A DNA stretch of 64,000 nucleotides from an uncultured Candidatus Saccharibacteria bacterium (lineage in GTDB: Bacteria > Patescibacteriota > Minisyncoccia > Phycocordibacterales > UBA2100). Location of the stretch: contig CAZUVH010000006.1 in assembly GCA_964623775.1 (NCBI GenBank), forward strand, positions 4,256 through 68,255, given 5' to 3'. The notes below the pieces were generated by a model, which saw nothing but the letters and a program-made list of their open reading frames with translations, did no database searches and was not told the origin of the DNA. The translations under genes were made by a program, and so were the position numbers. Shown piece after piece: positions 20,526-26,319 of the stretch. Position 1 is the stretch's first letter. Every line of letters begins with the position of its first letter.

Positions 20526-20556
20526 GCACCTGGGAAAACCCCAGGTGCTTCCTTTG
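20526..20556. terminator. Bidirectional hairpin terminator between gene 19788..20519 (plus) and tRNA-Asp (minus)
   Basis: GCACCTGGG-AAAAC-CCCAGGTGC with a T-rich tract on both strands. Confidence 0.55.
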
Positions 20557-20843
20557 CGCGAGTGACGGGACTCGAACCCGCAGCCTCTTCCGTGCACGTT
20601 ATCCGCTATTTTCATAGTGGCATGGACTATATCTTCACCATAGAAGGAAATTCCGTAGGTGCTCCGGTATCTAGTCTCTACGGCGCCCCCAACTTAATTC
20701 AGAAGGGGTTCCCTCGGTATTCGCATATCCGTCAGATTGACGAACTTAGCCTTCACCGATATCCCAGAGAGTTTCAATCGGCCTTTTCGACAGAAAGCTG
20801 CACATCTACAGGGAAGTGCTCTAACCAATTGAGCTACACCCGC
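20557..20843 (-). tRNA. tRNA-Asp (GUC) interrupted by a group I intron in the anticodon loop; no encoded CCA
   Basis: Exon 1 20843..20808 (GCGGGTGTAGCTCAATTGGTTAGAGCACTTCCCTGT) and exon 2 20594..20557 (CACGGAAGAGGCTGCGGGTTCGAGTCCCGTCACTCGCG) splice to an anticodon loop CUGUCAC and a T-arm identical to E. coli tRNA-Asp. G73, C38 and G10 all fit Asp identity. Confidence 0.75.
20595..20807 (-). other. Group I intron (about 213 nt, IC3-like) inside tRNA-Asp
   Basis: 5' splice site after U and a terminal G; P7-like GTAGAGACTAGA..GAAGATATAGTCC closely resembles the Azoarcus and Tetrahymena P7 and guanosine-binding-site sequences. Confidence 0.7.
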
Positions 20844-21535
20844 ATTTGATACAGAGTCTGCATCGCCCTCTTGAATATACGACGTTTTCGAGGCAAGCAG
20901 AGGTCTGTAGCAGCCACATTATGATACATGAGTCTATAGAGTGCAAGGCTGTCGCGATGACTAAGTATCAGTTCGAACCCACTGCGATTACTTTTTTTCA
21001 CAATAAATCCCTTCTTAATCCCGTGTGTCTTCAGGGCATTATGTAACCCGACAAGGAAAGTATTACTTCCAGAAATGAAACGTGAAGAAAATACCCATCT
21101 TTCTTTGTCTCGATCTTTTGCCCAATGTTTTTTGAAATATACATTGCCATCCCCGTCAAAGTAGCCACGCACAAAATCACCGATATACTCGGCGGGAACC
21201 GGAGGAAAAAGTATTATTTTTGATTTATTTTGCGAAAATCCACGAGCTTTCAAGTCCGCGAACATCTTTAAGCTACCGAATTGTATCCGGTATGCGGGCT
21301 TCCACTTCTCATTCATCTCATTTAGTTTTCTCACTCCAATGCGATGGCTCGATTTAAATGCATTACGAACGTGCGTGATCAGGATCTTGTCGGTGCTGTG
21401 GAATTCAATAAAATGTGCGCCGCGATTATTTTTGATCATTGCTCCGTCCGCGGCAAAATAGCCGAGCACATATGCCATCCGAGACGACCAGGTGCTAAAA
21501 AAATCGTGATCAACTTCTTTAAAAACAGGTGCCAC
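20834..21535 (-). CDS. LAGLIDADG homing endonuclease (double-motif), free-standing; its last 10 nt overlap the tRNA-Asp 5' end
   Basis: Motifs YVLGYFAADGAMI and VRGYFDGDGNVY; the stop codon TAG sits inside the tRNA acceptor-stem sequence GCGGGTGTAG. Confidence 0.8.
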   Translation of the reverse strand: MAPVFKEVDHDFFSTWSSRMAYVLGYFAADGAMIKNNRGAHFIEFHSTDKILITHVRNAFKSSHRIGVRKLNEMNEKWKPAYRIQFGSLKMFADLKARGFSQNKSKIILFPPVPAEYIGDFVRGYFDGDGNVYFKKHWAKDRDKERWVFSSRFISGSNTFLVGLHNALKTHGIKKGFIVKKSNRSGFELILSHRDSLALYRLMYHNVAATDLCLPRKRRIFKRAMQTLYQMRV

Positions 21536-22180: not shown

Positions 22181-22840
22181 ATGAAAACGCCTCGTGAGAT
22201 CTACGCGGCATACAAGATCATGCCGAATTTGCAGCTCCACCAGCTGCGTGTCGCGGCAGTGGGGAAGCGTATCGCCGAGAGTGCGCCCTACGCCCTTGAT
22301 GTGAATTCGATCGTTCTCGCAAGCCTTTTTCACGACATGGGTAACATCATAAAATCTGATTTTTCCGTTTTCCCCGAATTCGCAGAGCCGGAGGGTGTCG
22401 AGCATTGGGAAAAGGTAAAAGCAGACTTTATTCAAAAATACGGACAGAAAACTCATCGGGCCAATGTCATGATCGCTCAGGAGCTAAAGCTCTCGCGGCG
22501 GGTGGTCGATATTATCGATGCGGTCGGCTTTTCAAATATCAAAAACGTCTCAGATGCCGACTTGTGGGAAGAGAAGATCGTGGAATATTCGGATTGTCGC
22601 GTAGGACCCAAGGGCGTGCTTTCCCTCAAAGACCGTCACGAAGAGGCGCATCATCGGTACATGTCACATATGCCGCAGAGTGAAAAGTATTCAGAAGATG
22701 AATATATGCAATTGATCGCTTCGGCCGCGGCGATTGAGACCCAAATCTTCGCCATGAGCCTGATCGCTCCGTCCGACATAACCGACGCCGCGATCGCACC
22801 GATCATTGAGCAATTGTGGGACTATCCCGTCACGGCGTAG
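22181..22840 (+). CDS. HD-domain phosphohydrolase
   Basis: LFHDMGN HD motif with further conserved H and D downstream. Confidence 0.6.
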   Translation: MKTPREIYAAYKIMPNLQLHQLRVAAVGKRIAESAPYALDVNSIVLASLFHDMGNIIKSDFSVFPEFAEPEGVEHWEKVKADFIQKYGQKTHRANVMIAQELKLSRRVVDIIDAVGFSNIKNVSDADLWEEKIVEYSDCRVGPKGVLSLKDRHEEAHHRYMSHMPQSEKYSEDEYMQLIASAAAIETQIFAMSLIAPSDITDAAIAPIIEQLWDYPVTA

Positions 22841-22871
22841 AAAAGCAATACCTGTAAGATATAATGGTCTA

Positions 22872-23468
22872 ATGTTATCGAAGGATGCATTGGAGGAGCT
22901 TTACTTACAAAAAAGACTGCCGGTATCGTTCATAGCTAGTCGATTAAAATGCTCGGAAGGCAAGATAAATTACTGGCTTGCCGAGTATAAAATTCAAAAA
23001 CGAACGATCAGCGACGCCATATACAACAAATGGAATCCGCTGGGAGACCCTTTCTCAATAAAGAAACCAAGAACGATTGAGCAGGCCATCCTTTACGGTA
23101 TCGGAATCGGACTGTACTGGGGTGAGGGCACGAAAAGTAATAAAGTCTCAGTCCGACTAGGTAACACCGATCCGCGACTGATAAAAAAATTCATTCAATT
23201 TCTAACAAACATATATCAGATCGATAAAAGGAAGCTACACTTCGGGCTGCAGATTTTTTCAGACATGAACGCCGATGTGGCACTTGATTTCTGGACATCC
23301 GCATTAAAAATTTCTCGGAAACAATTCTACAAAGTAATCGTTACTCCGTATCGCGGGGTAGGGAACTATCGCCAGAAAACAAAACACGGTGTTCTTACGG
23401 TTTACTTCAACAACAGAAAATTGCGTGATATTATCTGCCATGCCATCGAAGAACAATCGATGAGCTAA
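22872..23468 (+). CDS. LAGLIDADG-like (single-motif) homing endonuclease or maturase with an N-terminal helix-turn-helix; stop abuts the tRNA-Thr 5' end
   Basis: AILYGIGIGLYWGEGTK fits the G-L-x-x-x-[DE]-G LAGLIDADG pattern; the stop TAA at 23466..23468 lies immediately before tRNA nucleotide 1 at 23469. Confidence 0.55.
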   Translation: MLSKDALEELYLQKRLPVSFIASRLKCSEGKINYWLAEYKIQKRTISDAIYNKWNPLGDPFSIKKPRTIEQAILYGIGIGLYWGEGTKSNKVSVRLGNTDPRLIKKFIQFLTNIYQIDKRKLHFGLQIFSDMNADVALDFWTSALKISRKQFYKVIVTPYRGVGNYRQKTKHGVLTVYFNNRKLRDIICHAIEEQSMS

Positions 23469-23726
23469 GCCGACGTAGCTCAGTTGGTAGAGCACGTCCT
23501 TGGTAAAGAAAATTGCCCGCTGGTGGAGCAATCTACCAGATGTAACTCGAATAACGGTTAAAGGCCTCCCGGAGGTTCAGACCGTGGCGAATCGACCGGA
23601 TTCGCCCGAACGACTGACAAGAGCGACTCACGTAGTCGAATATACAGTCTAATCCTCTGATAATTCATAAACAGAGGTAGGAAATGAAGGACGAGGTCAC
23701 CGGTTCAATCCCGGTCGTCGGCTCCA
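23469..23726 (+). tRNA. tRNA-Thr (GGU) interrupted by a group I intron; CCA encoded
   Basis: Exon 1 23469..23504 (GCCGACGTAGCTCAGTTGGTAGAGCACGTCCTTGGT) and exon 2 23687..23726 (AAGGACGAGGTCACCGGTTCAATCCCGGTCGTCGGCTCCA) give an anticodon loop UUGGUAA and a perfect acceptor stem. Confidence 0.75.
23505..23686 (+). other. Small group I-like intron (about 182 nt) in tRNA-Thr(GGU)
   Basis: 5' splice site after U36 and a terminal G at 23686; internal GACTG..CAGTC (P7-like) and CGACTCACGTAGTCG hairpins. Less clearly conserved than the tRNA-Asp intron. Confidence 0.55.
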
Positions 23727-23781
23727 AATGCTAGGGCTATATGCAGGCCACTTTAAAAAATTAAAGTGGTATGATGTTACG

Positions 23782-24267
23782 ATGAACGCAAAGAAGCCCA
23801 GGACCCCGTGTCGCAATTGTGGTAAAGAGCCTTATCGTTCATACTACAAATACTGCAGCAACGTGTGTCAGATCGAATACCAATTCACACTCTATATCGC
23901 AAGATGGAAAAGAGGAGAGGTGAGCGGTTTGCAGACTATCGGTACTGTCTCGCCGCATCTCAAAAGATACCTTCGTCAGAAATTTGGAAACAAGTGTTGT
24001 TTATGCGGATGGGCCGCTGTCAATAAAAAAACCGGCCTCGTTCCGCTTGTTGCCGATCATATAGATGGAGATTGGCGAAACAATATCGAGGATAATCTAA
24101 GGCTCTTGTGCCCCAATTGTGATTCACTCAGTCCCACCTTTGCAGCTTTGAACAAAGGTAACGGAAGAAAGAACCGGGCAGTAAGTAATCGCGTCAAAGA
24201 AGGTCGTATGCTGATTGAAAAACAACGCATTAAGAGAAAGATCCGCGTATTACCGTATTCTGTTTGA
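23782..24267 (+). CDS. HNH endonuclease
   Basis: CCLCGW..ADHIDGDWRNNIEDNLRLLCPNCDS is an HNH/His-Me finger motif; the alternative start at 23728 would abut the tRNA 3' end. Confidence 0.7.
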   Translation: MNAKKPRTPCRNCGKEPYRSYYKYCSNVCQIEYQFTLYIARWKRGEVSGLQTIGTVSPHLKRYLRQKFGNKCCLCGWAAVNKKTGLVPLVADHIDGDWRNNIEDNLRLLCPNCDSLSPTFAALNKGNGRKNRAVSNRVKEGRMLIEKQRIKRKIRVLPYSV

Positions 24268-24304
24268 ATGAGTCATGATGTGCTATATTCTTATCTCATA
24301 CACT

Positions 24305-24377
24305 GCCGCCTTAGCTCAGTTGGTAGAGCACAGCTTTCGTAAAGCTGGGGTCCGGAGTTCGATCCTCCGAGGCGGCT
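24305..24377 (+). tRNA. tRNA-Thr (CGU)
   Basis: GCCGCCTTAGCTCAGTTGGTAGAGCACAGCTTTCGTAAAGCTGGGGTCCGGAGTTCGATCCTCCGAGGCGGCT folds as a canonical cloverleaf; only CA follows the discriminator. Confidence 0.8.
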
Positions 24378-24396
24378 CAGGTTATACTTAACAACC

Positions 24397-25395
24397 ATGA
24401 TCAAAAGATTTTTATTCGCTTTTTGGGGTCCGATTCTTGCAACGATAGTCGGGCTCATTGCAGTCGCTCTGTGGGGTGGGGTCACCGCATTCGTGATTGC
24501 AATCCTGCTCGTGATTCTTGAAGTCACGCTCTCGTTCGACAACGCCGTCGTCAATGCAAAAGTACTAAAGCAATTGTCTGAGAAATGGCAGCACCGATTC
24601 CTCACATGGGGTATTTTCGTCTCGGTCGTCCTGACACGAGCACTGTTGCCGATCGCGATTGTCGCGATATCGACCGGCGTTTCCTATTTCACGATCGCGC
24701 ACATCGCGCTCTATGACTCAGAGCACTATGCCGAGCTCCTTGAAGGCGCGCACATTATCATCTCGGCATTCGGCGGCATTTTCCTGACCATCGTCGGCCT
24801 CAGGTACTTCTTCGATAAAGAAAAACAAGTGCATTGGATTCAGTCGGTCGAGAAGAAACTGGCCGAATGGGGGACGATCGAATCTGTCGTTATCGGCCTC
24901 GCGCTCCTCATCCTTTTCATAATCGCGTTTGCACTACCCGATCACCGCACCGAAGTCTTGTTCTCGGGGCTCGCAGGCGTGCTGGTATTCATCGTATTGC
25001 AGGGAATCATCAGTGCGTTTGGCGCCGAGTCGTACAAAATGCATCACACTGGCTTCGCACTTTTCGCGTATCTCAACGTCCTCGACGCAGCCTTCTCTCT
25101 CGATAGCGTCGTCGGAGCATTCGCGCTCTCGACGCAGCTTCCCGTCATCATCGTCGGCCTCGGCGCGGGTGCGTATTTCGTCCGATCACTCACCGTCTAC
25201 ATGGTGCAACACAAAGTCCTCGATGAACTCATATACATCGAGCACGGAGCGCACTGGGCGATCCTCGGTCTTGCCGGCGCGATGCTCGGGAGCATGTTCA
25301 TTAATTTGCCCGAGCCCATCACGGGCTTGATCGGTCTCACGCTCGTCATACTCGCGTACATTTCTTCGATTAAAATCGAAAACAAGACCCTATAA
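24397..25395 (+). CDS. TerC/DUF475-family integral membrane protein
   Basis: EVTLSFDNAVVNA motif repeated in the second half (SLDSVVGAFALS); about 9 TM helices. Confidence 0.5.
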   Translation: MIKRFLFAFWGPILATIVGLIAVALWGGVTAFVIAILLVILEVTLSFDNAVVNAKVLKQLSEKWQHRFLTWGIFVSVVLTRALLPIAIVAISTGVSYFTIAHIALYDSEHYAELLEGAHIIISAFGGIFLTIVGLRYFFDKEKQVHWIQSVEKKLAEWGTIESVVIGLALLILFIIAFALPDHRTEVLFSGLAGVLVFIVLQGIISAFGAESYKMHHTGFALFAYLNVLDAAFSLDSVVGAFALSTQLPVIIVGLGAGAYFVRSLTVYMVQHKVLDELIYIEHGAHWAILGLAGAMLGSMFINLPEPITGLIGLTLVILAYISSIKIENKTL

Positions 25396-25410
25396 GGGTA
25401 TACTCGAGAG

Positions 25411-26319
25411 ATGCCGAAAGATAAAATCGAGGCGCGCATCAAAGAGATAGAGGGAGCGATGGGAAGCCCCGATTTTTGGAATGATAAAGACAGGGCGCAG
25501 GCAGTACTCAAGGAATATCAGGATTTGAAGGCCAAGCTTGCGGGTGGAGGGGGATACGACAAGAGTGACGCGATCGTCACGATCGTCTCCGGCGCTGGAG
25601 GCGACGATGCGGAGGATTTCTCGCGCATGCTTTTTTCCATGTACGGCAAATACGTAGCGGGCCGCGGATGGCGCATCTCAATGCTCTCGTCCAATGAAAA
25701 TTCAATGGGTGGATTTCGAAGTGTTTCGTTTGAGGTAATCGGTGGCGGAGCCTACGGTGCGCTCAAGAACGAGGCGGGCGTCCATCGCCTTGTGCGCATG
25801 TCACCGTTCAATTCCGCCGGCAAACGCCAGACATCATTTTCACTCGTCGAGGTCCTGCCGAAGCTCCCAGATGTAGGAGAGGCGCATGTCCCCGAGAGCG
25901 ATCTCGAGATCACCGTGGCCCGCTCAGGCGGCCCTGGTGGGCAGAATGTGAATAAGCGTGACACTGCGGTGCGCATGACGCACAGGCCGACCGGCATCTC
26001 CGTGCATGTCACGAGCGAGCGCAGCCAGGTACAAAACAAAGAGAAGGCGCTCGAAATGATCCGCGGCAAACTCTTCCAGATGAAACAGGAGGCCCAGCTG
26101 CGCGAATCACGCGGCCTCTCCGTCGCCTCGAGCACCAAGATCGAGTGGGGGAGTCAGATCCGCTCCTATGTGCTCCACCCATACCAGTTGGTCAAAGACC
26201 ACCGCACCAATCATGAAGAGAGAAACGTCGATAAGGTGCTTGAGGGCAGCATTCAGCCATTTATTGATGCAGAAAAAGATCTGGAACACGGCGCTATTAT
26301 AGAGAACACGGACGTTTAG
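25411..26319 (+). CDS. prfB: Peptide chain release factor 2 (short form, no programmed frameshift)
   Basis: SPF tripeptide ([14 protein letters not shown]) and GGQ ([11 protein letters not shown]). At 302 aa it is N-terminally shortened relative to E. coli RF2, and no in-frame TGA or upstream frame is present. Confidence 0.8.

What the first reader, a model, noticed from the sequence alone, without database searches (positions are those of the whole stretch)
22872..24267. Second intron-containing tRNA (Thr-GGU) flanked by a single-motif LAGLIDADG-like gene upstream and an HNH endonuclease downstream
tRNA-Thr(GGU) exons 23469..23504 and 23687..23726 flank a 182-nt intron (5' splice site after U36, terminal G, P7-like GACUG/CAGUC). 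An ORF with GIGLYWGEG (a LAGLIDADG variant) and an N-terminal helix-turn-helix ends exactly at the tRNA 5' nucleotide, and an HNH endonuclease ORF starts just after the tRNA 3' end. The same layout of an endonuclease ORF butted against the 5' end of an intron-containing tRNA therefore occurs twice within 3 kb, making this a hotspot of selfish genetic elements around tRNAs.
Basis: partly seen in the sequence, partly recalled or inferred. Interest (0 to 1): 0.7.

Follow-up and report, generated by a model that had tools for sequence, protein, structure and literature searches.

The report
Endonuclease genes parked before tRNA genes
A threonine tRNA gene of an ultrasmall (Patescibacteria) bacterium is split by an already-described small self-splicing intron, and the gene butted against its 5' end belongs to a large, unnamed family of homing-endonuclease-like genes that always sits exactly there, with or without the intron, which hints at how such gene-less introns spread.

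Summary
tRNA-Thr(GGU) is 23469..23726, split by a 182-nt insert at 23505..23686, after U36 and ending in G. Rfam's group I model misses the insert. Sixty distinct homologous introns support P1-P9 by covariation, and this 36/37 Thr(GGU) class is published for Patescibacteria as missed by RF00028.

The new result is contextual.
- In the window and all 88 homologous loci, this ORF lies immediately 5' of tRNA-Thr(GGU). Its stop is often the tRNA's U8-A9-G10.
- Sixty-seven carry the intron and 22 do not.
- Conversely, 54 of 97 assessable intron-bearing metagenome loci lack the ORF, and some keep decayed remnants.
- An empty allele with the identical mature tRNA exists.

An obligate maturase role is therefore not supported. 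A free-standing homing endonuclease gene in the tRNA leader, often travelling with the intron, fits best.

The HNH ORF belongs to the next gene, tRNA-Thr(CGU). A LAGLIDADG_3 ORF does the same at tRNA-Asp(GUC). The layout thus occurs three times in about 4 kb. No nuclease or splicing activity was tested.

The parts
22838..22865 (+). Promoter-like site TAGAAA-16-TATAAT. The -10 hexamer ends 6 nt before the ORF A start codon, so the mRNA may be leaderless.
   Evidence: Consensus scan, 10 of 12 matches. This is a consensus match only; the number of such sites in the region is no higher than in shuffles.
22872..23468 (+). ORF A, 198 aa. It has an N-terminal helix-turn-helix (about residues 1-45) and one LAGLIDADG-fold domain (about residues 62-198) with the motif GIGLYWGEG, whose glutamate E85 is invariant among 48 aligned homologues. 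The stop TAA abuts tRNA nucleotide 1.
23469..23504 (+). tRNA-Thr(GGU) 5' exon, ending with U36 of the anticodon.
23505..23686 (+). 182-nt group I intron at tRNA position 36/37. Helices: P1 GGU|AA / UUGCC; P2 with a GCAA loop; P3 CUC/GAG; P4-P5; P6; P7 GACUG/CAGUC; P8; P9. Omega-G is 23686.
   Evidence: The class is reported in PMC13011429.
23687..23726 (+). tRNA-Thr(GGU) 3' exon. The discriminator is at 23723 and the encoded CCA is 23724-23726.
23782..24267 (+). HNH/zinc-ribbon ORF (161 aa from the ATG at 23782). Its family lies on the 5' side of tRNA-Thr(CGU).
24305..24378 (+). Intronless tRNA-Thr(CGU), 37 nt downstream of the HNH ORF stop.
20834..21535 (-). ORF B, a two-motif LAGLIDADG_3 protein. 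Its TAG stop is U8-A9-G10 of tRNA-Asp(GUC).
   Evidence: (PF14528, E 4.8e-9).
20556..20843 (-). tRNA-Asp(GUC) split at position 35/36 by a 213-nt group I intron (20595..20807).
   Evidence: (Intron_gpI 42.5 bits).

Best explanation
What the locus is. It stacks two separable selfish elements on one essential gene.

(1) The intron. The 182-nt insert is a compact group I intron of the published Patescibacteria tRNA-Thr(GGU) 36/37 class. After transcription it should excise itself. Guanosine attacks after U36, which forms the U.G wobble of P1 with the invariant guide GCC. Omega-G (23686) then defines the 3' splice site and the exons are ligated into a normal tRNA. This step is inferred from structure; it was not assayed.

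(2) ORF A. It is a free-standing homing-endonuclease gene, coding for an HTH plus one LAGLIDADG domain that presumably acts as a homodimer. It is lodged in the 5' leader of the tRNA gene. I infer that it is transcribed from its own promoter-like site and read through into the pre-tRNA, and that RNase P cleavage at G1 frees the tRNA. The insertion would then be as harmless to the host as an intron.

(3) Proposed spread. I infer that the enzyme cuts tRNA-Thr(GGU) loci that lack it. Repair from an ORF-bearing copy would then carry in the ORF and, because the intron site is only 36 nt away, often the intron as well. This is the 'collaborative homing' arrangement known from phages. The ORF and intron are gained, decay and are lost independently.

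(4) Other families. The HNH ORF before tRNA-Thr(CGU) and the LAGLIDADG_3 ORF before tRNA-Asp(GUC) use the same niche.
For: Intron.
- It is split exactly as claimed.
- Sixty-seven ORF A loci, the window included, carry a homologous intron of 169-229 nt, all with U-1 and omega-G.
- On 60 distinct sequences, 95.2% of cells pair against 79.1% in shuffles and about 34-44% when partners are slid. Thirty-five pairs show compensatory changes. P4 and P7 are invariant.
- The same class is reported as missed by RF00028 but found by a bacterial tRNA-intron model (PMC13011429).

ORF A fold.
- The motif glutamate is invariant in 48 of 48 aligned homologues.
- HTH hits occur across family members.

Position.
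- In the window and all 88 fetched ORF A loci, the ORF is immediately 5' of tRNA-Thr(GGU).
- In the 86 loci scored, the stop-to-tRNA gap has a median of 6 nt (intron-bearing) or -10 nt (intronless). Twenty of 65 intron-bearing loci use the tRNA's own UAG as the stop.
- Duplicated tRNA 5' ends lie in the spacer in several loci.

Selfish-element signatures.
- L215 is an empty allele whose tRNA is identical to the spliced window tRNA, with neither ORF nor intron.
- Decayed remnants exist with an in-frame stop, a frameshift or deletions (L197, L168, L172, L101).
- ORF identity tracks RF2 identity only weakly (rho 0.26). The window's ORF is closer to RF2-distant loci (L001, L004, L013: ORF 63-64%, RF2 55-59%) than to RF2-close loci (L039, L071: ORF 49-52%, RF2 71-72%).
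- The intron is present in 75% of ORF A loci, against 3 of 95 complete Patescibacteria genomes in PMC13011429.

Parallel families.
- ORF B overlaps tRNA-Asp(GUC) by 10 nt in the window and in L089, L090, L091 and L092; the last two come from look-ups of one and the same protein.
- The HNH ORF lies 5' of tRNA-Thr(CGU) in the window and in L004, L213, L214 and L215.

Precedent. Collaborative homing is described in PMC3984707.
Against: - No nuclease activity, target site or splicing was tested.
- Sequence-level support for LAGLIDADG membership is absent. ORF A gets no Pfam hit. hhalign against the ORF B family gives probability 0.4%. Only one distant relative gives LAGLIDADG_3 at E 0.02.
- Predicted strand order (alpha-beta-alpha-beta-alpha-beta-beta-alpha) is not the textbook alpha-beta-beta-alpha-beta-beta-alpha.
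- ORF A is unusually well conserved for a parasite. Pairwise identity is 46-68%, length is constant, and invariant residues run along its whole length. Gene order HD-ORF A-tRNA-...-prfB is shared by many lineages. This also fits vertical inheritance of a useful gene.
- The 22 ORF-bearing loci without an intron need another route to self-immunity.
- Pairwise identities of intron and ORF do not correlate (rho -0.04), so strict co-transfer is not shown.
- The CC/GG anticodon-stem signature goes with the intron whether or not the ORF is present. It may reflect splicing needs rather than a cleavage target.
Confidence: 0.6

Rival explanations
1. ORF A is a domesticated LAGLIDADG/HTH DNA-binding protein, in the manner of WhiA. 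It would serve the host, for example in transcription or tRNA-gene regulation, be inherited vertically, and be co-transcribed with tRNA-Thr(GGU). Its link to the intron would be incidental.
For: - Conservation is high and even, and length is constant.
- Identities are comparable to RF2 among distant lineages.
- Shared synteny HD-ORF A-tRNA-Thr-prfB.
- The ORF is present whether or not the intron is.
Against: - The motif glutamate at the canonical metal-binding position is invariant. As I recall, WhiA proteins have lost these residues; I did not check this here.
- Decayed copies and empty sites exist.
- Congruence with RF2 is weak, with rank reversals.
- Two unrelated nuclease families occupy the equivalent spot at other tRNAs, which is hard to explain by three independent domestications.
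- The intron is strongly enriched next to the ORF.
Confidence: 0.22
2. ORF A is a maturase encoded outside the intron. It would bind the compact intron, whose P3 is only 3 bp, and be needed for efficient splicing of the only tRNA-Thr(GGU). That need would keep it under purifying selection beside the gene.
For: - LAGLIDADG proteins can act as group I maturases (general knowledge; PMC3984707).
- The intron is very small and has a minimal P3.
- Seventy-five percent of ORF A loci carry the intron.
Against: - Twenty-two of 89 ORF A loci have no intron.
- Fifty-four of 97 assessable intron loci have no ORF A within at least 700 nt upstream, and others hold only decayed fragments.
- Other Patescibacteria tRNA introns self-splice in vitro without protein (PMC13011429).
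Confidence: 0.08
3. The insert is not a ribozyme but some other insertion, and the adjacency of the ORFs and tRNAs is coincidental.
For: There is no RF00028 hit even at E up to 10 on the insert alone.
Against: - Covariation supports a complete group I core.
- The U-1/omega-G boundaries are identical in 67 loci, the window included.
- The literature reports the same blind spot of RF00028 for this class.
- The ORF-tRNA adjacency holds in all 89 loci.
Confidence: 0.02

Closest known systems
Group I introns in Patescibacteria tRNA genes: the tRNA-Thr(GGU) 36/37 class detected by tFind's gpI_bact_tRNA model (Williams 2020 bioRxiv 10.1101/2020.01.27.920355; Nakagawa et al. 2026, PMC13011429)
   Same: Same tRNA, same insertion site and same phylum. 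The boundaries are U-1 and omega-G. The class is likewise invisible to Rfam RF00028.
   Different: Nothing essential differs. At 182 nt this copy is just under the 184-894 bp range that paper reports, and family members go down to 169 nt. That paper scored homing-endonuclease genes only inside introns and concluded that mobility is limited. It did not examine flanking ORFs.
[quoted passage not shown]
   Same: An endonuclease-type gene sits outside but next to an intron-containing gene whose intron has no ORF. The two elements are separable and close enough to be co-converted.
   Different: Here the host is a cellular genome rather than a phage. The target gene is a tRNA rather than a protein gene. 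The nuclease is LAGLIDADG-like. The ORF occupies the tRNA 5' leader and can end inside the tRNA. Cleavage at the intron insertion site is not shown.
Homodimeric single-motif LAGLIDADG homing endonucleases (I-CreI, I-CeuI, I-MsoI, I-CvuI)
   Different: ORF A is not intron-encoded and carries an extra N-terminal HTH. The first beta hairpin is very short, the predicted strand order differs, and no Pfam LAGLIDADG profile matches.
Phage T4 SegB, a free-standing homing endonuclease in the tRNA gene cluster
   Same: A free-standing nuclease gene embedded among tRNA genes that promotes inheritance of the tRNA region.
   Different: SegB is a GIY-YIG enzyme and is phage-encoded. It is not fused to the 5' end of one particular tRNA.
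WhiA (degenerate LAGLIDADG domains plus HTH)
   Different: WhiA has two LAGLIDADG domains and a C-terminal HTH. As I recall it lacks the catalytic acidic residues and is a universal Gram-positive host factor; neither point was checked here. ORF A has one domain, an N-terminal HTH and an invariant glutamate, and its occurrence includes empty sites and decayed copies.

Membership tests
Group I intron | 5' splice site after a U that forms a U.G wobble in P1 with an internal guide sequence | tested here: met
   U8.G38 of alignment A2 is UG in 60 of 60 sequences, flanked by two invariant G-C pairs (GGU/GCC).
Group I intron | [quoted passage not shown] | tested here: met
   G at 23686. All 67 intron-bearing ORF A loci (window included) end in G, as do 110 of the 117 metagenome pre-tRNA hits; the other 7 could not be parsed by my script.
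Group I intron | Conserved core: a P4-P6 domain and a P3-P7-P8-P9 domain, with P3 and P7 forming a pseudoknot | tested here: met
   All helices are found in the canonical order. Compensatory changes occur in P2, P3, P5, P6, P8 and P9. P4 and P7 are invariant, so they are uninformative. 95.2% of cells pair against 79.1% in shuffles. P3 is only 3 bp.
Group I intron | Match to the curated Rfam model RF00028 | tested here: not met
   There is no hit at E up to 10, even on the insert alone. The same failure is documented for this class in PMC13011429. The neighbouring tRNA-Asp intron scores 42.5 bits.
Group I intron | Guanosine-dependent self-splicing | not testable with these tools
   [quoted passage not shown] Only the 35/36 Asn and Asp introns were assayed in PMC13011429.
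LAGLIDADG homing endonuclease | LAGLIDADG-type interface helix ending in a conserved acidic residue | tested here: met
   The motif is G[IVL]GLYWGEG. G78, G80, L81, Y82, W83, E85 and G86 are invariant in 48 sequences.
LAGLIDADG homing endonuclease | LAGLIDADG domain fold | tested here: met
LAGLIDADG homing endonuclease | Significant match to a Pfam LAGLIDADG profile or to a bona fide family profile | tested here: not met
   No Pfam hit. hhalign against the ORF B LAGLIDADG_3 family gives probability 0.4%, although the motifs align in register. One distant relative gives LAGLIDADG_3 at E 0.02.
LAGLIDADG homing endonuclease | Site-specific double-strand DNA cleavage | not testable with these tools
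   This needs purified protein and the L215-type empty allele as substrate.
Free-standing homing endonuclease gene / collaborative homing | The gene lies outside any intron or intein, at one fixed site next to a conserved target gene | tested here: met
   All 89 ORF A loci (the window plus 88), and 31 further metagenome loci, have the ORF immediately 5' of tRNA-Thr(GGU).
Free-standing homing endonuclease gene / collaborative homing | Presence/absence polymorphism, with empty sites and degenerating copies | tested here: met
   L215 is an empty site with an identical tRNA, and L213 is another. Remnants occur in L168, L197, L172 and L101. Fifty-four intron loci lack the ORF.
Free-standing homing endonuclease gene / collaborative homing | Gene history incongruent with host history (horizontal spread) | tested here: inconclusive
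   ORF and RF2 pairwise identities correlate weakly (rho 0.26) and show rank reversals. However, ORF identities are compressed into 0.46-0.68, so saturation could mimic this pattern.
Free-standing homing endonuclease gene / collaborative homing | The endonuclease target coincides with the intron insertion site, so the intron gives immunity | not testable with these tools
   Only indirect hints exist. Intron-bearing alleles have NNNCC/GGNNN anticodon stems in 63 of 67 ORF A loci and 100 of 110 metagenome loci. ORF-bearing intronless alleles mostly differ there.
Group I intron maturase | The protein and its cognate intron co-occur obligatorily | tested here: not met
   Twenty-two of 89 ORF A loci are intronless. 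Fifty-four of 97 assessable intron loci are ORF-less.
HNH endonuclease (ORF 23782..24267) | Match to an HNH profile, with a beta-beta-alpha-metal motif flanked by CxxC pairs | tested here: inconclusive
   Pfam HNH_3 gives E 0.0036 and 17.3 bits against a cutoff of 24.8. By eye the sequence shows CCLCG ... DHIDGD ... NN ... N ... CPNCD. NCBI names homologue P0293 'HNH endonuclease'.

The most novel reading that the evidence does not exclude
The 5' leader of tRNA genes would be a general, previously unrecognised safe harbour for homing endonuclease genes in Patescibacteria. Because RNase P trims everything upstream of tRNA nucleotide 1, a nuclease ORF placed there, even one that borrows the tRNA's U8-A9-G10 as its stop codon, would be as silent for the host as an intron or intein. 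At least three unrelated nuclease families, each with more than 1,400 relatives, have each specialised on one tRNA: HTH-LAGLIDADG at Thr-GGU, LAGLIDADG_3 at Asp-GUC and HNH at Thr-CGU. These flanking nucleases, rather than intron-encoded ones, would then mobilise the ORF-less tRNA introns of this phylum. That would overturn the published inference that such introns have little horizontal mobility.
Probability: 0.4. Interest if true: 0.75.

Novelty: new variant of a known kind. Interest (0 to 1): 0.6.

Why it matters
The intron is already known. The flanking gene family is not named in Pfam or NCBIfam, and I found no description of it in the searchable literature.

If these ORFs are active homing endonucleases, three things follow.
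- They would explain why group I introns without endonuclease genes are so common in the tiny genomes of Patescibacteria.
- They would extend collaborative homing from phages to cellular tRNA genes.
- They would add a third kind of phenotypically silent niche, the RNase P-trimmed tRNA leader, to introns and inteins.

They would also be a pool of compact, single-domain LAGLIDADG enzymes with a natural tRNA-gene specificity. For annotation, both split tRNAs are missed by default tRNA finders, so the genome would wrongly appear to lack tRNA-Thr(GGU) and tRNA-Asp(GUC).

Tried and rejected
- Rfam RF00028 on 4 kb and on the insert alone gave no hit. I do not take this as evidence against a group I intron, because the literature documents the same miss and covariation is strong.
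- Foldseek of the full-length model against the PDB gave nothing significant.
- A profile of the family against PDB sequences returned only a spurious nanobody hit.
- hhalign of the ORF A family against the ORF B family gave probability 0.4%.
- The afdb50 library was not available.
- Obligate maturase role: rejected on the co-occurrence counts.
- 'HNH gene as 3' partner of tRNA-Thr(GGU)': rejected, because its family tracks tRNA-Thr(CGU).
- A test for co-inheritance of intron and ORF by pairwise identity gave no signal (rho -0.04). Its power is low because intron identity is dominated by an invariant core and unalignable loops.
- The CC/GG anticodon-stem signature as a marker of the nuclease target: not accepted, because it follows the intron regardless of the ORF.
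Full report
**1. The observation**

GCCGACGTAGCTCAGTTGGTAGAGCACGTCCTTGGT occupies 23469..23504. A 182-nt insert follows at 23505..23686. AAGGACGAGGTCACCGGTTCAATCCCGGTCGTCGGCTCCA occupies 23687..23726.

Default ARAGORN and the Rfam tRNA model do not report this gene. ARAGORN run with introns allowed does: tRNA-Thr(ggt) at 23469..23726 with a 182-nt intron after nucleotide 36. The spliced sequence gives a canonical cloverleaf.

ORF A (22872..23468) ends with a TAA whose last base is directly followed by tRNA nucleotide 1.

The other split tRNA, about 2.6 kb upstream on the minus strand, is tRNA-Asp(GUC) at 20556..20843. Its 213-nt intron sits at position 35/36. Rfam's Intron_gpI hits it at 42.5 bits, E 1e-8, below the gathering score of 50.

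**2. Is the 182-nt insert a group I intron?**

Rfam RF00028 finds nothing here, even on the insert alone at E up to 10. The minimum-free-energy fold nevertheless already has the group I layout, with z = -4.7 against shuffles.

Comparative data settle the matter.
- Homologues of ORF A led to 88 loci. Sixty-six of them, plus the window, carry a homologous insert at exactly the same tRNA position.
- These inserts are 169-229 nt long. All follow a U and end in G.
- On the 60 distinct sequences (alignment A2), RNAalifold recovers P1, P2, P4, P5, P6, P7, P8 and P9.
- With the 3-bp P3 pseudoknot added, 95.2% of cells are standard pairs, against 79.1% in column shuffles and 34-44% when partners are slid by 1-3 columns. 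Thirty-five pairs show changes on both sides.
- P4 and P7 (GACUG/CAGUC) never vary, so they neither support nor contradict the fold.
- The P1 splice-site pair is U.G in 60 of 60 sequences.

This class is not new. Nakagawa et al. 2026 (PMC13011429) list tRNA-Thr(GGU) 36/37 introns in three complete Patescibacteria genomes. They state that these introns were not detected with RF00028 but were found by tFind's bacterial tRNA-intron model (tFind is described). Self-splicing of this particular class has not been shown, either there or here.

**3. What ORF A is**

Pfam and NCBIfam give no significant family. The protein has more than 1,400 relatives of about 195-205 aa at roughly 57-80% identity, almost all unnamed, from Patescibacteria. 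It has 407 relatives among GTDB species genomes.

An alignment of 48 sequences shows invariant residues along the whole length. They include G78, G80, L81, Y82, W83, E85 and G86 of the GIGLYWGEG motif.

The structural evidence came in two steps.

The N-terminal 45 residues match many HTH profiles in distant family members.

Sequence-profile evidence for LAGLIDADG is weak.
- hhalign against the ORF B family gives probability 0.4%, although the motifs align in register.
- One relative gives LAGLIDADG_3 at E 0.02.

I therefore call ORF A an HTH plus a single LAGLIDADG-fold domain with the canonical acidic residue retained. Membership of the family rests on fold and motif, not on profile statistics.

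**4. The context result**

The ORF is tied to the tRNA gene, not to the intron.
- In the window and all 88 fetched loci, ORF A is immediately 5' of tRNA-Thr(GGU). Sixty-seven have the intron and 22 have an ordinary, uninterrupted tRNA.
- In the 86 loci scored, the distance from stop codon to tRNA nucleotide 1 has a median of 6 nt in intron-bearing loci and -10 nt in intronless ones.
- In 20 of 65 intron-bearing loci, the stop codon is the tRNA's own U8-A9-G10. This explains the C-terminal ...PM seen in several homologues.
- Several loci with a spacer carry duplicated copies of the tRNA's first 10 or so nucleotides, or acceptor-stem minihelices, between the ORF and the tRNA.

For the reciprocal test I scanned metagenome contigs for the intron core alone. 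Of 117 loci with the split tRNA, 97 could be assessed:
- 31 have a full ORF A upstream.
- 12 have partial matches. Some are cut by contig ends. Others are decayed copies inside long contigs: L197 has an in-frame stop, L168 has N- and C-terminal fragments in different frames, and L172 and L101 have C-terminal stubs.
- 54 have no ORF A, although at least 700 nt of upstream sequence is available.

L215 holds a tRNA-Thr(GGU) identical to the spliced window tRNA, with neither ORF A nor the intron.

**5. The same layout at other tRNAs**

- ORF B (20834..21535, minus strand) matches Pfam LAGLIDADG_3 at E 4.8e-9 and has about 2,500 relatives. In the window and in L089, L090, L091 and L092 its TAG stop is U8-A9-G10 of tRNA-Asp(GUC); L091 and L092 come from look-ups of one and the same protein. 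In those other loci the tRNA is intronless.
- The HNH-like ORF has about 1,570 relatives at 62-79% identity and 145-165 aa, so its start is most likely 23782. In L213, L214, L215, L004 and the window it lies just upstream of tRNA-Thr(CGU). The gaps are 32, -26, 17, 97 and 37 nt. It therefore belongs with the next tRNA, not with the 3' end of tRNA-Thr(GGU).

Three nuclease-type ORFs of three families thus each abut the 5' side of a specific tRNA within about 4 kb.

**6. Mechanism**

Shown here:
- the split gene;
- a covariation-supported group I core;
- an HTH-LAGLIDADG-fold protein;
- fixed ORF-tRNA adjacency;
- separability of ORF and intron;
- empty and decayed sites.

Inferred:
- A promoter-like TAGAAA-16-TATAAT ends 6 nt before the ATG (a consensus match only). 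This suggests a leaderless ORF A mRNA that runs into the pre-tRNA. RNase P would then release the tRNA, and the intron would self-splice.
- The protein would cut loci lacking it, and repair would copy the ORF across. Often it would also copy the intron 36 nt away. This is the 'collaborative homing' arrangement reviewed in PMC3984707.

Consistent with spread and loss:
- ORF and RF2 pairwise identities correlate only weakly (rho 0.26).
- There are rank reversals. The window's ORF is 63-64% identical to those of L001, L004 and L013, whose RF2 is 55-59% identical. It is 49-52% identical to those of L039 and L071, whose RF2 is 71-72% identical.
- The intron is present in 75% of ORF A loci, against 3 of 95 complete Patescibacteria genomes.

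Against, or unresolved:
- ORF identities are compressed into 0.46-0.68, so saturation could mimic incongruence.
- Gene order HD-ORF A-tRNA-...-prfB is widely shared.
- Intron and ORF identities do not correlate.
- The 22 ORF-bearing intronless loci need another form of self-immunity.
- Intron-bearing alleles nearly always have CC/GG at the loop end of the anticodon stem: 63 of 67 ORF A loci and 100 of 110 metagenome loci. ORF-bearing intronless alleles mostly do not. Because this holds with or without the ORF, it may reflect intron-exon pairing rather than a nuclease target.

**7. Rivals**

- A domesticated WhiA-like DNA-binding protein remains possible (about 0.2). The invariant glutamate, the decayed copies, the empty sites and the two parallel nuclease families all count against it.
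- An obligate maturase is not supported by the co-occurrence counts (about 0.08).
- Chance or a non-intron insert is excluded.

**8. Comparison and novelty**

The intron is already known. Free-standing endonucleases paired with ORF-less introns are known from phages. I did not find the following described in the searchable literature, nor in Pfam or NCBIfam:
- this HTH-LAGLIDADG family;
- its fixed position in the 5' leader of a cellular tRNA gene;
- its use of the tRNA's UAG as a stop codon;
- the convergence of three nuclease families on that niche.

The 2026 survey looked for endonuclease genes only inside introns and concluded that horizontal transfer is limited.

I rate the finding a new variant of a known kind, with interest 0.6. 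Everything about activity remains to be tested.

Noticed in passing
window 20556..21535 (minus strand): tRNA-Asp(GUC) is split at position 35/36 by a 213-nt group I intron (20595..20807). A two-motif LAGLIDADG_3 ORF (20834..21535) has its TAG stop at the tRNA's U8-A9-G10. In L089, L090 and L091/L092 the same ORF family overlaps an intronless tRNA-Asp(GUC) by the same 10 nt.
   Followed up: partly
window 23782..24378; L213, L214, L215, L004: The HNH/zinc-ribbon ORF family (about 1,570 relatives at 62-79% identity) consistently lies on the 5' side of tRNA-Thr(CGU), overlapping it by 26 nt in L214. More distant relatives in L042, L050 and L073 lie next to tRNA-Thr(UGU).
   Followed up: partly
alignment A2, columns 13-15 with 304-306 (absent from the window's own intron, which has a short P1 loop): In most family members a CGC in the P1 loop covaries with the last three intron nucleotides, including omega-G (GC to AU in 6 sequences; CG to UA in 11). 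This suggests a pairing that holds the 3' splice site next to P1. It is neither the textbook P10 nor P9.0.
   Followed up: partly
L005-L008 (3601..3744 in L005); also L020, L027, L040, L043, L045, L053, L065: Between the ORF A stop and the real tRNA lie one or two extra copies of the tRNA's first 10 or so nucleotides. Some form acceptor-stem minihelices (GCCGATG...CATCGGC). They look like scars of repeated recombination at the ORF-tRNA junction.
   Followed up: partly
L100, L133, L209, L188: Some intron-bearing tRNA-Thr(GGU) loci without ORF A have other nuclease-type ORFs upstream. L100, L133 and L209 have small ORFs that look GIY-YIG-like by eye. L188 has a LAGLIDADG_3 ORF resembling ORF B.
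   Followed up: no
proteins P0372, P0374, P0382, P0398 and others: Proteins of 400-800 aa consist of 6-14 tandem copies of the roughly 45-residue N-terminal HTH module of ORF A. Their nature is unknown.
   Followed up: no
window 23747..23768: A perfect 9-bp AT-rich hairpin (CCACTTTAA AAAA TTAAAGTGG) lies between the tRNA-Thr(GGU) CCA end and the HNH start codon. The terminator scan did not call it.
   Followed up: no
window 22838..22874: The TATAAT of the promoter-like site ends 6 nt before the ORF A ATG and there is no room for a Shine-Dalgarno sequence, which suggests a leaderless mRNA.
   Followed up: no
window 22181..26319 and L009-L016, L028, L039, L071: Gene order HD-domain protein, ORF A, tRNA-Thr(GGU), (HNH), tRNA-Thr(CGU), (DUF475/TerC), prfB is shared in whole or in part by many Parcubacteria lineages.
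   Followed up: partly
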